Source: Escherichia coli
Lineage (GTDB): Bacteria > Pseudomonadota > Gammaproteobacteria > Enterobacterales > Enterobacteriaceae
DNA length: 64,000 nucleotides
Assembly (NCBI RefSeq): GCF_003790525.1
Contig: NZ_CP033635.1
Strand: one strand, 5' to 3'
Below are positions 37,701-43,700 of the stretch, piece by piece (the stretch's first letter is position 1; every line of letters starts with the position of its first letter). Made by a program: the position numbers.

Positions 37701-40700
37701 AACGCCAAATTCGCTTTGGATCCGTGCTGCCAGCGCGTGGATAAGCTGCCCGCGACGTTCTTCATCGCTGATCCGACACTGGATCTGCAAAATGATTTTT
37801 TCCTGGGCGGTAACAAAAGCAATCGCATCGCCAGAATGAATTTCCGGTTCCTGTTCCGCAATATATTCAATATCCTGCGGCCAGATATTACGGCCACGAA
37901 TAATAATCAGATCTTTAATGCGTCCGGTGACATACAGATAACCGTCCAGCAGATAACCGAGGTCGCCGGTGTCTAACCAGCCCGTCGCGGCAATCTCGTC
38001 TTGTGAAATCTGGTCGCCAAAGTAACCGCTCATCAGGCTAGGGCCGGAGATGCAAATATGGCCTACCACACGTTCCGCGACAGGTATACCTGCTTCATTG
38101 CGGATTTCAATGCCATGTTCCGGCAACGCTTTACCGCAGTTGACGAAAGTCGATACGGCGCGTGTTTCAGCATCCGGCGCGACGGCTTTGCCCTGATATT
38201 CGAGGATGTCGCGATCCACTTCGTTAACCACAACCCCGGAAGCTTCATCAGAGAAGCTGACAGCCAGCGCATTTTCTGCCAGTCCGTAGCACGGCATGAA
38301 AGTTTTATCGTCAAAGTTGACCTGACGGAAACATTCAGCGAATTGATGGAGTTGTTCTGCGGAGATGGGTTCTGCACCAATACCAGCGACGCGCCAGCAG
38401 GAAAGATCCAGTTCAGCGAGATCTTTTTCATTCACGCGGCGCTGGCACAATTCATAGCCAAACGGCGGCGCAACGGAAACGGTGCCGCGATTTTTACTGA
38501 TCAATTTAAGCCATTGCAGAGGACGCATGGCAAAATCCTGAGTGCGCAAATAATCTACTGAAAGCTGCGTGGCGACGGGGGTCAGGAGAAAGCCGACCAG
38601 TCCCATATCATGGTAGAAAGGCAGCCAGGAGACGCAGCGGTCGCCAGGGCGTAATTTTATGCCATCGTGGCTTATAGCACGTAGATTAGCCATCACTTCG
38701 CGATGGGTGATAATGACGCCACGGGGAAAACGGGTGCTGCCGGAGGTGTACTGGAGGTAGGCGATATCGTTCGGAACTGGACGCTGGAGCGCAACATCGG
38801 CTTCCGGTAATGCCTTAAACCAGGCGTGGCTTAAAACATGTAATTCGGGGTTGTTGTTATGCGTCGCGGCATTGACCAGTGGCAACCACTCATCACCAGT
38901 GATAATGGCTGCGGGCTGGCAACTTGCCAGTAAACCCTGCAGCTTGGCGCTCCAGGAATCCCGCTGACCGACGCCCATGGGAATCGCCAACGGGACGGCG
39001 ACTAAGCCGGCATACTGGCAGGCAAAAAAAGCCTCTACGAACCCGCTACTGGTTTCGGCAATCAGCGCCACGCGATCGCCTTTTTTCAGGTTTAGCGATA
39101 ACAACCGCTTCGCACCAGCTTCGGCACGCGCTTTTAACGTCTGATATTCCAGTTGATCTTCAAGTTGGCAACGTCTGTCATAAAAATTCATTCCAGCGCT
39201 ACTCAGAGCGGCATAGTCCAAAGCATCAACCAGCGTTGGAAAATCGGCATAGCGCATAGGTAGGGAATGCGTAAAGATTTTATTAGACATATACACCACG
39301 AAAAAATTGGATATCAAAAATAAAATGACAATAATGCGGTGGATTATATAGGCATAAAAGATAAATGAGATAGTATTTTCATCAGTGTGAAAATGAACAT
39401 TGATTTAAATAATGAATTTGAGTTTTTTGTTTTTATTGTGAATGATATTTAATTTATGAATATATTAAGAAGGAGCCTTGTCCGGTCGCCTTAAATCGAC
39501 AAAAGGCATTGTGGCGCTTCTGTGTAGTCTCTGACCTTATCGTAATCATTAATAAATACTATTTATTCGTTGTTTGTATTCATTGGGTTGATTATTAAGG
39601 TGCCGTTCGTTGCTGTTGCAACCTGTTTGTCACCGTTAATTATTTGTTACCCACAGAACTATGGAATGCGATCTGCTGATGATTAAAATTGAAAAAGTAA
39701 TTAATAAAAATGACCTTAAGGCATTTATCGCTTTTCCGTCATCACTTTATCCCGACGATCCAAACTGGATACCCCCTTTATTCATTGAACGCAACGAGCA
39801 TTTGTCTGCGAAAAATCCGGGGACGGACCATATCATCTGGCAGGCGTGGGTGGCAAAAAAAGCGGGGCAGATAGTTGGGCGTATTACCGCGCAAATAGAT
39901 ACATTGCACCGCGAGCGTTACGGCAAAGATACCGGTCATTTCGGCATGATTGACGCCATTGATGATCCGCAGGTTTTTGCCGCGTTGTTTGGCGCAGCGG
40001 AAGCGTGGTTGAAGTCACAAGGTGCAAGTAAGATCAGCGGTCCTTTCAGCCTGAATATCAATCAGGAAAGCGGATTACTGATTGAAGGTTTCGATACACC
40101 ACCCTGTGCGATGATGCCACACGGCAAACCGTGGTATGCCGCGCATATTGAACAATTGGGTTATCACAAAGGCATTGATTTACTGGCGTGGTGGATGCAG
40201 CGAACCGATCTCACTTTCTCTCCGGCGCTAAAAAAACTGATGGATCAGGTACGCAAAAAGGTGACCATTCGTTGCATCAATCGTCAGCGGTTTGCTGAAG
40301 AGATGCAGATCCTGCGTGAGATTTTCAACTCTGGCTGGCAGCACAACTGGGGATTTGTGCCGTTTACCGAACATGAATTCGCGACCATGGGCGACCAACT
40401 TAAATATCTGGTGCCGGACGATATGATCTACATCGCTGAGATTGATTCTGCACCCTGCGCGTTTATTGTCGGCTTGCCAAACATCAACGAGGCGATTGCC
40501 GATCTGAACGGATCGCTCTTTCCCTTCGGCTGGGCAAAATTGCTGTGGCGTTTAAAAGTCAGCGGTGTGCGAACTGCGCGAGTACCGCTGATGGGCGTGC
40601 GGGACGAGTATCAGTTCAGCCGCATCGGCCCGGTGATTGCGCTGTTATTGATTGAAGCCTTACGCGATCCGTTTGCCCGCCGGAAGATCGATGCGCTGGA

Positions 40701-43700
40701 GATGTCATGGATCCTCGAAACCAATACAGGCATGAATAACATGCTGGAACGCATTGGGGCAGAGCCGTACAAGCGTTACCGATTGTATGAAAAGCAGATT
40801 TAATACCAGATCCTGTTAAGCGCAGGGGCGATCCCTCGCCCCTCGGGGAAAGGGTTAGGGTGAGGGTGAAAACTCGGCTCACATTCCCACCTTGTTCATC
40901 TCCAGCGGCACCGCCGAGCGAATCAAATGGTGGCCTTCCAGCTCGATATCGTGGAGATTCTTTTTCACGGTCCGCACATGATCGCGTGCTGCGCGCTGGG
41001 CGACGTGCGGCAGCCGCTGCAACACCGCGTTGTAGATCCGCGCATGCTGGCGATCGATCTGCTTTTTTTGCTGTGGTCGATGGTAGAGATTATTTACGCT
41101 GGCAAACACTGAATTAAACATCAGATCGGTCAATGATTGCAGCGTAAACACCAACACCTGATTGTGAGAAGCCTGACAAATGGCGAGATGGAAAGCGTGA
41201 TCCAACTGCGCATGTTCGATCAGCGAAATCTCTTTGTTGTTCTCACTGGCGGCGAGCATTTTTTCATAACAGCGGGTTATCACAACAAAATCAGCCTGGG
41301 TTCCCAGCGTTGCCGCCAGCCTTGCCGATTCACCCTCCAGCAATGCGCGAACGTCGAGCAGATCGTACAGCGTTCGCGGCTGCGTACTGAACAGATGGAT
41401 CAGCGGGCTGGTGTCCTGCACCCGATTAAGCCGTGCGACACGAGAATCGCGACCCTGCGCCGTTTCAATAATCCCGCGCCCGCGCAGCACGGTCAGCCCT
41501 TCACGCAGTGCGGAGCGTGAGAAGCCGAGCTTTTCACACAGTCGACGTTCCGAGGGAAGCGGCTGACCGACCTTCAGTACGCCGTCGATAATTAACCGTT
41601 CGATACTCTCTGCAACCACTTCGCAAATAGGGCGACGTTCATCTTTCATTCCCGGACCTCGTGCACAGGTAGGACCAATTTTTCTGTTCTTAACTCGCAA
41701 AACACGCACATCACGCAAGTGATTATGTTACATCAATTTAACATTAAGTTAACCAGGACAAGGTCACAGAGCTGGAAAAAAAATGGTCTGACCGGTAGCT
41801 AAAGAGATAGACGAAAACGAAAAGCCCGCTTAATAACTGTTCACAGAAGCAGCGCGAAAAAATCAGCTGCCACACAACACAACAAAGCGAACCCTACTCA
41901 TGAGCATCTTGTACGAAGAGCGTCTTGATGGCGCTTTACCCGATGTCGACCGCACATCGGTACTGATGGCACTGCGTGAGCATGTCCCTGGACTGGAGAT
42001 CCTGCATACCGATGAGGAGATCATTCCTTACGAGTGTGACGGGTTGAGCGCGTATCGCACGCGTCCATTACTGGTTGTTCTGCCTAAGCAGATGGAACAG
42101 GTGACGGCGATTCTGGCTGTCTGCCACCGCCTGCGTGTACCGGTGGTGACCCGTGGTGCAGGCACCGGGCTTTCTGGTGGCGCGCTGCCGCTGGAAAAAG
42201 GTGTGTTGTTGGTGATGGCGCGCTTTAAAGAGATCCTCGACATTAACCCCGTTGGTCGCCGTGCGCGCGTGCAGCCGGGCGTGCGTAACCTGGCGATCTC
42301 CCAGGCCGTTGCGCCGCATAATCTCTATTACGCGCCGGATCCGTCCTCACAAATCGCCTGTTCGATTGGCGGCAATGTGGCGGAAAATGCCGGTGGCGTT
42401 CACTGCCTGAAATATGGTCTAACCGTACATAACCTGCTGAAAATTGAAGTGCAAACGCTGGACGGCGAGGCGCTGACGCTGGGATCGGACGCGCTGGATT
42501 CGCCTGGTTTTGACCTGCTGGCGCTGTTTACCGGATCGGAAGGTATGCTCGGCGTGACCACCGAAGTGACGGTAAAACTGCTGCCGAAGCCGCCCGTGGC
42601 GCGGGTGCTGTTAGCCAGCTTTGACTCGGTAGAAAAAGCCGGACTTGCGGTTGGTGACATCATCGCCAATGGCATTATCCCCGGCGGGCTGGAGATGATG
42701 GATAACCTGTCGATTCGCGCGGCGGAAGATTTTATTCATGCCGGTTATCCCGTCGATGCCGAAGCGATTTTGTTATGCGAACTGGACGGCGTGGAGTCTG
42801 ACGTACAGGAAGACTGCGAGCAGGTTAACGACATCTTGTTGAACGCGGGTGCGACTGACGTCCGTCTGGCACAGGACGAAGCAGAGCGAGTACGTTTCTG
42901 GGCCGGTCGCAAAAATGCGTTCCCGGCGGTAGGACGTATCTCCCCGGATTACTACTGCATGGATGGCACCATCCCGCGCCGCGCCCTGCCTGGCGTACTG
43001 GAAGGCATTGCCCGTTTATCGCAGCAATATGATTTACGCGTTGCCAACGTCTTTCATGCCGGAGACGGCAACATGCACCCGTTAATCCTTTTCGATGCCA
43101 ACGAACCCGGTGAATTTGCCCGCGCGGAAGAGCTGGGCGGGAAGATCCTCGAACTCTGCGTTGAAGTTGGCGGCAGCATCAGTGGGGAACATGGCATTGG
43201 GCGCGAAAAAATCAATCAAATGTGCGCCCAGTTCAACAGCGATGAAATCACGACCTTCCATGCGGTCAAGGCGGCGTTTGACCCCGATGGTTTGCTGAAC
43301 CCAGGAAAAAACATTCCCACGCTACACCGCTGTGCTGAATTTGGTGCCATGCATGTGCATCACGGTCATTTACCTTTTCCTGAACTGGAGCGTTTCTGAT
43401 GCTACGCGAGTGTGATTACAGCCAGGCGCTGCTGGAGCAGGTGAATCAGGCGATTAGCGATAAAACGCCGCTGGTGATTCAGGGCAGCAATAGCAAAGCC
43501 TTTTTAGGTCGTCCTGTCACCGGGCAAACGCTGGATGTGCGTTGTCATCGCGGCATTGTTAATTACGACCCGACCGAGCTGGTGATAACCGCGCGTGCCG
43601 GAACGCCGCTGGTGGCGATTGAAGCGGCGCTGGAGAGCGCCGGGCAAATGCTCCCCTGCGAGCCGCCGCATTATGGTGAAGAAGCCACCTGGGGCGGGAT

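What the first reader, a model, noticed from the sequence alone, without database searches (positions are those of the whole stretch)
39661..40803. Full-length YghO GNAT-like N-acyltransferase (pseudogene in K-12, from memory) as a candidate N-acylating step
The ORF is an uninterrupted 380 codons, transcribed divergently from the ligase operon across a 343-bp AT-rich region. In a sphingolipid-like pathway the N-acylation step (ceramide synthase) is needed; the bacterial ceramide synthase described in Caulobacter is a GNAT-type acyltransferase, as I recall. YghO is therefore a plausible bCerS-like enzyme; no direct sequence comparison is possible here.
Basis: inference. Interest (0 to 1): 0.7.

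Follow-up and report, generated by a model that had tools for sequence, protein, structure and literature searches.

The report
E. coli YghO, bacterial ceramide synthase orthologue
The gene is real and is the E. coli counterpart of the Caulobacter enzyme that adds the second fatty chain to bacterial sphingolipids, but this assignment was already published in 2022, so the finding is correct rather than new.

Summary
**Observation: confirmed.** Window 39661-40803 (+) is an intact 380-codon ORF, RefSeq "protein YghO". It is divergent from a fatty-acyl-AMP ligase / epimerase-type reductase / ACP / serine palmitoyltransferase operon across a 32%-GC spacer.

**Interpretation: supported.**
- I recovered a Caulobacter-type `bcerS` gene using the published cloning primers. 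YghO is 45% identical to it over 363 residues (E 2e-111).
- In 80 species, 70 YghO homologues lie within 10 kb of the spt-operon genes and/or LptF/LptG paralogues. The ligase is divergent and upstream in 43 of 48 loci.
- Pfam and NCBIfam do not recognise YghO, so database names are uninformative or wrong.

**Novelty: already known.** Padilla-Gómez et al. 2022 (PMC9386255) list `yghO`/ECD_02850 as the CC_1154 orthologue (44%, 1e-107). A 2026 preprint draws the E. coli UTI89 sphingolipid locus.

**Still untested** in the searchable literature: YghO's own activity and any native E. coli sphingolipid.

**Small additions here:**
- About 75% of complete E. coli genomes carry the whole set.
- K-12 lost it through an IS5-bounded deletion.
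- The conserved start is probably 39679.

The parts
39661..40803 (+). yghO CDS as annotated (380 codons plus stop). The conserved protein (374 aa) starts at the second ATG, 39679.
   Evidence: ORF list. RefSeq annotation. Homologue lengths and upstream frames.
39679..40212 (+). N-terminal GNAT-like half (residues 1-178 of the 374-aa form). It contains the family-invariant G67-R68, G121-P122 and N128-x-E130-x-G132 ('GPFxLSINxExGLL'). It has no recognisable CoA pyrophosphate loop and is inferred to form the acceptor or lipid pocket.
40222..40800 (+). C-terminal GNAT half (residues 182-374). It is inferred to be the acyl-thioester-binding, catalytic domain. It contains W220-x-x-N223-W-G-F-x-P228, E341/W344/E347/N349 and K365-x-Y367-R368.
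   Evidence: Model. The family profile matches GNAT motif A/B of PDB 3tt2 and 2ge3 only in this region. Invariant columns.
40579..40629 (+). Strand beta4 plus a diverged 'motif A' loop (R301-V-P-L-M-G306-V-R-D-E-Y-Q-F-S-R-I-G317). It carries a 4-residue insertion relative to the canonical Q/R-x-x-G-x-G/A.
   Evidence: HMM alignment to 3tt2 and 2ge3. R301, G306 and G317 are invariant.
39291..39660 (.). AT-rich divergent intergenic region between aasR and yghO, presumed to hold promoters for both units.
   Evidence: GC 0.32. The consensus promoter scan found no more sites than in shuffles, so no promoter is located.
37566..39290 (-). aasR: fatty acyl-AMP ligase (specialised acyl-ACP synthetase).
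   Evidence: NF006624, 872 bits against a cut-off of 600. RefSeq. The E. coli enzyme acylates AcpR_Ec (PMC9386255).
36655..37569 (-). cerR-like NAD-dependent epimerase/dehydratase-family reductase. It overlaps aasR by 4 nt.
   Evidence: Listed as the CC_1164 orthologue ECD_02852.
36375..36623 (-). acpR: specialised acyl carrier protein.
   Evidence: ECD_02853 carries 4'-phosphopantetheine (PMC9386255).
35203..36375 (-). spt: serine palmitoyltransferase.
   Evidence: NF047599, 600 bits against a cut-off of 500. RefSeq gene 'spt'. The E. coli enzyme was assayed (PMC9386255).
33022..35168 (+). lptF2 (33022-34092) and lptG2 (34089-35168): second copies of the LPS-export permeases.
   Evidence: TIGR04407 and TIGR04408. 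RefSeq. The Caulobacter paralogues are required for sphingolipid transport (bioRxiv 10.64898/2026.04.12.717747).
27831..32991 (.). Left part of the island: yghT (-), yghS, yghR (P-loop, dTMP-kinase-like), yghQ (MOP flippase), a 274-aa protein with no family match, and a YtfJ-family protein. Membership of the pathway is inferred from co-location only.
   Evidence: Homologues sit next to yghO homologues in other genera.

Best explanation
YghO is the E. coli orthologue of the bacterial ceramide synthase bCerS (Caulobacter CC_1154 / CCNA_01212).

It is a soluble protein of about 374 residues built from two fused GNAT domains. The C-terminal domain is inferred to bind a long-chain acyl thioester through a diverged motif-A loop. 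The cleft between the two domains is inferred to hold the amino group of the long-chain base. The enzyme transfers the acyl chain to that amine.

The substrate is made next door. AasR loads a fatty acid onto AcpR. Spt condenses acyl-AcpR with serine to give 3-oxosphinganine. YghO then N-acylates it, either directly (the 'bacterial order') or after reduction to sphinganine, and the CerR-like reductase supplies the reduction step. The product would be a (dihydro)ceramide, presumably flipped by YghQ and exported by LptF2/LptG2.

Shown here: homology, fold, conserved residues and conserved gene linkage. Taken from the literature: the activities of E. coli AasR, AcpR and Spt, and of Caulobacter bCerS. 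Inferred: YghO's own activity, its acyl donor, the order of steps, and whether E. coli ever runs the pathway.
For: Sequence. BLASTP against a 382-aa Caulobacter-type bCerS recovered with both published bcerS primers gave 45% identity and E 2e-111 over 363 residues with 2 gaps. The published value for CC_1154 against ECD_02850 is 44%, 1e-107, 98% coverage. All 38 columns invariant across 16 family members, real bCerS included, are kept in YghO.

Context. Across 80 species, 50 loci have at least one spt-operon gene within the flanks, 36 have all four, 43 have LptF/G paralogues and 70 have either. Among loci with full flanks the figure is 41 of 43. AasR is divergent and upstream in 43 of 48. The Caulobacter-type contig L086 has an LptG2-like gene immediately upstream of bcerS.

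E. coli population. yghO at >= 80% coverage is in 4136 of 5426 complete genomes, and the spt operon in 4067 of 5426.

Literature. E. coli BL21(DE3) expressing Spt with AcpR and AasR forms compounds migrating like sphinganine and ceramide, 'possibly by intrinsic enzymes'. The authors name ECD_02850 as the candidate N-acyltransferase. bCerS acylates 3-oxosphinganine or sphinganine.
Against: No assay of YghO itself and no report of a native E. coli sphingolipid turned up in the searchable literature.

Pfam and NCBIfam do not recognise YghO. Its CoA-binding loop is diverged, so the donor (acyl-CoA or acyl-ACP) is open.

In E. coli neither candidate ATG has the AAGG Shine-Dalgarno seen in other Enterobacterales, and no promoter could be located. 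Expression may therefore be weak or conditional.

Some family members lie away from spt. Ten of the 80 loci show no partner genes, although most of those are short contigs. One member is fused to an acyl-AMP ligase on a contig with no spt within 8 kb. The family may not be exclusively ceramide-forming.

The Caulobacter-type sequence came from metagenome contigs identified by primer sites, GC content and a neighbouring gene, not from the NA1000 genome record.
Confidence: 0.82

Rival explanations
1. Cryptic locus. YghO is a competent bCerS-type enzyme, but in E. coli the island is silent or nearly so (for example, repressed through its AT-rich control region). The cell would then make no sphingolipid under ordinary conditions, and the gene would have no phenotype.
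For: No E. coli sphingolipid is reported in the searchable literature. The spacer has 32% GC, with no consensus promoter above background and no Shine-Dalgarno at either ATG, unlike orthologues. K-12 lost the whole set without obvious harm.
Against: The complete set is kept intact in about 75% of complete E. coli genomes at 95-99% nucleotide identity. It is also syntenic in other Enterobacterales. That argues for selection and so for use under some condition. This rival concerns regulation and does not contradict the enzymatic assignment.
Confidence: 0.3
2. Same fold, different acceptor. YghO N-acylates another amine made or used by the island, such as an amino lipid or a head-group intermediate, rather than the long-chain base.
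For: The closest solved tandem GNATs act on sugars and small amines (glucosamine, mycothiol precursor, aminoglycosides). A family member is fused to an acyl-AMP ligase next to an MGDG-synthase-type glycosyltransferase with no spt nearby. The island holds several genes of unknown role.
Against: YghO shares 45% full-length identity and all family-invariant residues with the enzyme shown genetically and biochemically to make ceramide. The most constant neighbours across phyla are spt, acpR, cerR and aasR, not the variable genes.
Confidence: 0.07
3. YghO is a protein lysine or aminoglycoside acetyltransferase, or the DNA-binding regulator that the K-12 annotation names, and only happens to lie beside the operon.
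For: The K-12 record says 'putative DNA-binding transcriptional regulator'. Eis-type aminoglycoside acetyltransferases are among the structural neighbours.
Against: The model has no DNA-binding domain and is all GNAT. In a screen of the 25 further E. coli GNAT-family members, which included a YghO overexpression clone, YghO is not among those named as producing acetyl-lysine bands, although this was the IS5-altered K-12 form. Chance adjacency is excluded by linkage in 70 of 80 species.
Confidence: 0.03

Closest known systems
Bacterial ceramide synthase bCerS (Caulobacter crescentus CC_1154 / CCNA_01212; Stankeviciute et al. 2022, Olea-Ozuna et al. 2021, as cited in PMC11324152 and PMC11087976)
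   Same: It is the same length class (374 against 382 aa), with 45% identity end to end and the same invariant residues and C-terminal ...Y-K-x-Y-R-x-Y-E-K motif. It is soluble, with no transmembrane segment. It is encoded in its own transcription unit beside spt/acpR/cerR/aasR and LptF2/G2 paralogues.
   Different: YghO has not been assayed or mutated. E. coli lacks the Caulobacter head-group genes (CC_1159-1161 type) in the stretch examined. It has instead yghQ/R/S/T, a 274-aa unknown protein and a YtfJ-like protein. In E. coli yghO is directly divergent from aasR, whereas in Caulobacter about eight genes separate cerS from spt.
Tandem-repeat GNATs with solved structures: MAB_4324 (7q3a), glucosamine N-acetyltransferase (5kf1), mycothiol synthase MshD (1ozp), Eis
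   Different: Identity is only 13-17%, and those enzymes transfer acetyl to soluble amines. YghO has a 4-residue insertion in motif A and lacks the usual motif-B tyrosine position (Leu/Ile instead; read from the alignment). Its inferred substrates are lipids.
Eukaryotic ceramide synthases (Lag1p/CerS, TLC domain)
   Same: The proposed reaction is the same: N-acylation of a sphingoid base by an acyl thioester.
   Different: They are unrelated in sequence and fold. Eukaryotic CerS are multi-pass membrane proteins, whereas YghO is a soluble GNAT with no TLC match and no transmembrane segment. This is the 'convergent evolution' already described in the literature.
OlsB-type lipid N-acyltransferases (PF13444 family)
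   Same: Both add an acyl chain to the amine of a lipid precursor.
   Different: Neither YghO nor any of 70 family members matches PF13444. OlsB-type enzymes are single-domain, whereas YghO is a tandem GNAT.

Membership tests
bCerS (bacterial ceramide synthase, CC_1154 family) | Full-length sequence homology to the experimentally characterised Caulobacter enzyme | tested here: met
   45% identity, 62% positives and E 2e-111 over 363 of 374 residues. The comparison sequence is a 382-aa ORF bounded by both published bcerS primers. The published figure is 44%, 1e-107.
bCerS (bacterial ceramide synthase, CC_1154 family) | Retention of the residues invariant across the family | tested here: met
   All 38 invariant columns of a 16-sequence alignment spanning several bacterial phyla (Pseudomonadota, Nitrospirota, Gemmatimonadota and others) and including the Caulobacter-type sequences are present in YghO.
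bCerS (bacterial ceramide synthase, CC_1154 family) | Soluble or peripheral protein without transmembrane helices | tested here: met
   The maximum 19-residue Kyte-Doolittle hydropathy is 1.36. The model is a compact alpha/beta fold. bCerS is reported as a cytoplasmic peripheral membrane protein.
bCerS (bacterial ceramide synthase, CC_1154 family) | Genomic association with spt, acpR, aasR and cerR, but in a separate transcription unit | tested here: met
   It is divergent from the aasR-cerR-acpR-spt operon in the window. The same arrangement holds in 43 of 48 loci with AasR. 70 of 80 species show spt-operon genes and/or LptF2/G2 within 10 kb. The literature states that cerS is always in a different operon.
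bCerS (bacterial ceramide synthase, CC_1154 family) | Catalyses N-acylation of 3-oxosphinganine or sphinganine | not testable with these tools
   This needs an enzyme assay. The only indirect published hint is ceramide-like spots in BL21(DE3) overexpressing Spt, AcpR and AasR.
bCerS (bacterial ceramide synthase, CC_1154 family) | Required for ceramide formation in vivo | not testable with these tools
   No yghO mutant lipidomics was found.
GNAT superfamily | GNAT fold (beta1-alpha1-alpha2-beta2-4-alpha3-beta5-alpha4-beta6) | tested here: met
GNAT superfamily | Motif A pyrophosphate-binding loop Q/R-x-x-G-x-G/A, detectable by family HMMs | tested here: inconclusive
   YghO itself has no Pfam hit even at E <= 10. 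PF00583 is seen in 4 of 70 relatives at E <= 1e-3 and 22 of 70 at E <= 0.1. The family profile aligns its C-terminal motif A/B to 3tt2 at E 0.0067 with a 4-residue insertion in the loop.
OlsB-type N-acyltransferases (PF13444) | Match to the family HMM | tested here: not met
   Neither YghO nor any of 70 relatives matches.
Eukaryotic CerS (TLC / Lag1p) | TLC domain, multi-pass membrane protein | tested here: not met
   There is no Pfam TLC match and no hydrophobic segment. The fold is GNAT.

The most novel reading that the evidence does not exclude
Most E. coli, including pathogenic lineages but not K-12, may be able to make an outer-membrane ceramide-based lipid under conditions not yet identified.

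In this reading YghO adds the N-acyl chain, and the island's other genes give the lipid a head group and an export route different from Caulobacter's. Those genes are the YghQ flippase, three dTMP-kinase-like P-loop proteins YghR/S/T, a 274-aa protein with no family match, a YtfJ-like protein, and LptF2/G2.

That would overturn the textbook view that E. coli has no sphingolipids. It would also mean that K-12-based lipid biology has missed a whole lipid class.
Probability: 0.35. Interest if true: 0.65.

Novelty: already known. Interest (0 to 1): 0.27.

Why it matters
The assignment turns an uninformative or misleading annotation ('protein YghO', 'DNA-binding transcriptional regulator', 'dATP pyrophosphohydrolase') into a specific, testable enzyme. 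With YghO, E. coli has a complete five-gene ceramide pathway.

About three quarters of complete E. coli genomes carry the intact set plus dedicated Lpt paralogues, whereas the laboratory K-12 lineage deleted it. The open question is therefore not what YghO is but whether and when E. coli makes sphingolipids, and what they do for the outer membrane or for host interaction.

That question is directly testable in strains such as BL21(DE3) or UTI89. The credit for the idea belongs to published work.

Tried and rejected
- **Primary bCerS paper.** Stankeviciute et al. 2022 could not be read. Neither the DOI nor my guessed PMC id is held, so its content is cited only through later papers.
- **Finding the Caulobacter sequence.** Looking up clusters of ten representatives showed no Caulobacter. 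The single genome-contig scan returned the 80 best loci with no Caulobacter among them. The 70-sequence alignment was too diverse for that scan. The primer-based DNA probe worked. One of its three hits, L087, was a chance match in unrelated AT-rich DNA and was discarded.
- **Structure libraries.** AFDB50 Foldseek gave many family members but no informative names.
- **Promoters and terminators.** The consensus scan found no more sites than in shuffles, so I make no promoter claim.
- **The YghO-ligase fusion (P0191).** I first read it as a Rosetta-stone link to AasR. Its contig has no spt within 8 kb and has fragmented genes, so it is kept only as a side note.
- **Rejected readings.** I rejected the DNA-binding regulator, protein lysine acetyltransferase, OlsB-type and TLC-type readings. 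The reasons are in the rival explanations and membership tests.

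
Full report
**What is there.**

The window is E. coli chromosome. The yghO region is 100% identical to strain CREC-544. An ATG-started ORF of 380 codons occupies 39661-40803 on the + strand, and RefSeq annotates it as 'protein YghO'.

Upstream on the opposite strand lies a four-gene operon:
- a fatty acyl-AMP ligase (37566-39290; NF006624, 872 bits);
- an NAD-dependent epimerase/dehydratase-family protein (36655-37569);
- an acyl carrier protein (36375-36623);
- a serine palmitoyltransferase (35203-36375; NF047599, 600 bits against a cut-off of 500, RefSeq gene 'spt').

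The spacer has 32% GC against about 50-56% in the genes. Its length depends on the start codons chosen. Homologues in other Enterobacterales are 374 aa and start at the equivalent of 39679. Their upstream frames carry stops or no ATG, and they have an AAGG Shine-Dalgarno that E. coli lacks. The extra six codons (MECDLL) are therefore E. coli-specific and probably not part of the functional protein.

**Family searches.**

YghO matches no Pfam family even at E <= 10 and no NCBIfam model. PDB sequences give only noise. The 'GNAT' label therefore could not be taken for granted.

The protein nevertheless belongs to a large family. There are 6502 cluster representatives at E <= 1e-3 and 1128 at E <= 1e-30, nearly all 370-400 aa and aligned end to end. 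Close homologues occur in Serratia, Citrobacter, Pluralibacter, Pantoea, Erwinia and others, and are named 'N-acetyltransferase' at best.

**Fold.**

- then Eis proteins and N-myristoyltransferase.

At sequence-profile level only the C-terminal half shows GNAT motifs A and B (3tt2 at E 0.0067), with a four-residue insertion in the pyrophosphate loop. This probably explains why Pfam misses the protein. PF00583 is seen weakly in 22 of 70 relatives. No 19-residue window is hydrophobic enough for a membrane helix.

**Direct comparison with bacterial ceramide synthase.**

The published cloning primers for Caulobacter bcerS (ccna_01212) give the 5' end of the gene and the last codons. An exact-match scan of metagenome contigs with the forward primer returned two high-GC contigs (68% and 72% GC). 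In each, the forward and reverse primer sites bound a 382-aa ORF. One contig has an LptG-like gene immediately upstream, as in the published Caulobacter map.

YghO is 45% identical (62% positives, two gaps, E 2e-111) to this protein over 363 residues. That reproduces the published CC_1154 against ECD_02850 figures of 44%, 1e-107 and 98% coverage. In a 16-sequence alignment spanning several bacterial phyla (Pseudomonadota, Nitrospirota, Gemmatimonadota, Methylomirabilota, Thermodesulfobacteriota) and including the Caulobacter-type sequences, 38 columns are invariant, and YghO keeps all of them.

**Gene linkage.**

A scan of one genome per species returned 80 loci from 80 species. tblastn with the E. 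coli island proteins gave these counts:
- 50 loci have at least one of AasR, CerR, AcpR or Spt within the fetched flanks;
- 41 have Spt (50-88% identity, so true orthologues rather than BioF/Kbl);
- 36 have all four;
- 43 have LptF/LptG paralogues;
- 70 have one or the other;
- among loci with at least 9 kb on both sides, 41 of 43 do.

The ligase is divergent and upstream of the YghO homologue in 43 of 48 cases. In Nitrosomonas only the Lpt paralogues are adjacent, which matches the published separation of Neut_1100 from Neut_0458-0461. Clustering of all five genes is thus much more common than 'only C. crescentus and E. coli BL21', as stated in PMC9386255.

**E. coli population and K-12.**

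yghO is present at >= 80% coverage in 4136 of 5426 complete genomes, and the spt operon in 4067. In K-12 MG1655 an IS5 element sits between a truncated yghQ and yghO and replaces the first residues of YghO. Everything between them is gone: the 274-aa gene, the ytfJ-like gene, lptF2, lptG2, spt, acpR, cerR and aasR. The remaining K-12 ORF is 99% identical over 371 residues and is annotated as a 'putative DNA-binding transcriptional regulator'. The GNAT fold contradicts that name.

**What the literature already says.**

- Padilla-Gómez et al. 2022 (PMC9386255) list 'aca: CC_1154, yghO ECD_02850' in their Figure 9 and Table S2. They showed biochemically that E. coli AasR, AcpR and Spt work as in Caulobacter. 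[quoted passage not shown] - A 2026 preprint shows that Caulobacter LptF2/G2 are required for sphingolipid transport, and it draws the E. coli UTI89 locus beside the Caulobacter one.
- Only one paper in the searchable library links yghO with ceramide. None reports an assay of YghO or a native E. coli sphingolipid.
- In a screen of the 25 further E. coli GNAT-family members, which included a YghO overexpression clone, YghO is not among those named as producing acetyl-lysine bands.

**Mechanism.**

The best-supported reading is that YghO is the N-acylating step of a five-gene ceramide pathway. AasR loads AcpR, Spt makes 3-oxosphinganine, YghO N-acylates it before or after reduction by the CerR-like enzyme, and the product is flipped and exported by the island's YghQ and LptF2/G2.

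Homology, fold, conserved residues and linkage are shown here. The partner enzymes' activities come from the literature. YghO's activity, its donor, the order of steps and its expression in E. coli are inferred.

Three rivals remain. The first is a functional enzyme in a silent locus, which is compatible with the main reading. The second is a different amine acceptor. The third is an unrelated acetyltransferase or regulator, which the evidence largely excludes.

**Verdict.**

What remains open, and is worth an experiment, is whether E. coli actually makes a sphingolipid and what the unexplained island genes add to it.

Noticed in passing
window 40810-40878: A GC-rich repeat of about 70 bp (…GCGATCCCTCGCCCCTCGGGGAAAGGGTTAGGGTGAGGGTGAA…) sits between the convergent yghO and glcC genes. 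K-12-type records have only 6 nt there. The full segment is present in only 186 of 5426 complete E. coli genomes, while 80-90% identical copies occur elsewhere in about 2000 genomes. It looks like a small mobile or intergenic repeat inserted in this lineage.
   Followed up: partly
window 27831-30200 (yghT on the - strand; yghS and yghR on the + strand): Three paralogous P-loop proteins have only weak dTMP-kinase or AAA similarity, well below the family cut-offs. YghR and YghS homologues lie next to yghO homologues in Erwinia, Rosenbergiella, Mangrovibacter and a betaproteobacterial MAG. They may belong to the sphingolipid locus, for example as a lipid or head-group kinase, but nothing is known.
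   Followed up: partly
window 31595-32419: A 274-aa protein has no Pfam or NCBIfam match. It is conserved inside the island in other Enterobacterales, and there is a 51% identical copy near the YghO homologue of Luteibacter (L068). It is deleted in K-12.
   Followed up: partly
window 30246-31595 (yghQ): This is a MOP-flippase-family protein and so a plausible counterpart of the Caulobacter CC_1166 candidate flippase. In K-12 its 3' end is cut off by IS5.
   Followed up: no
P0191; locus L084 8001-10823: This is a natural fusion of a YghO-like domain (residues 3-374) to a fatty acyl-AMP ligase (386-933). It lies on a 37%-GC metagenome contig next to an MGDG-synthase-type glycosyltransferase, with no spt within 8 kb. 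Neighbouring genes on the contig look fragmented. P0121 (784 aa) appears to be a tandem duplication of the whole protein.
   Followed up: partly
L003 and L011 (Shimwellia pseudoproteus): This species has two YghO homologues. One (84% identity) is inside a complete cluster. The other (75%) is on another contig with none of the partner genes within 10 kb.
   Followed up: no
L082 (NZ_CP084683.1, 'BL21(RP)'): This record carries the K-12-type IS5 deletion (yghQ truncated, IS5, altered yghO). BL21(DE3) is reported to have the full cluster, ECD_02850-02854. It is either a strain difference or a labelling issue.
   Followed up: no
window 39640-39681: Other Enterobacterales have 'AAGGcTGTTT ATG' (a good Shine-Dalgarno) before the conserved start. 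E. coli has replaced this stretch with an extra in-frame ATG 18 nt upstream and has no obvious Shine-Dalgarno for either ATG. This may mean weak translation in E. coli.
   Followed up: partly
window 34089-34092, 36375 and 37566-37569: Gene ends overlap: lptF2/lptG2 by 4 nt, acpR/spt by 1 nt and aasR/cerR by 4 nt. These overlaps suggest translational coupling within the operons.
   Followed up: no
public annotations of the family: Family members are variously named 'DNA-binding protein', 'DNA-binding transcriptional regulator', 'dATP pyrophosphohydrolase' and 'virulence-associated protein VagC'. None is named ceramide synthase, so database annotation lags behind the literature.
   Followed up: no
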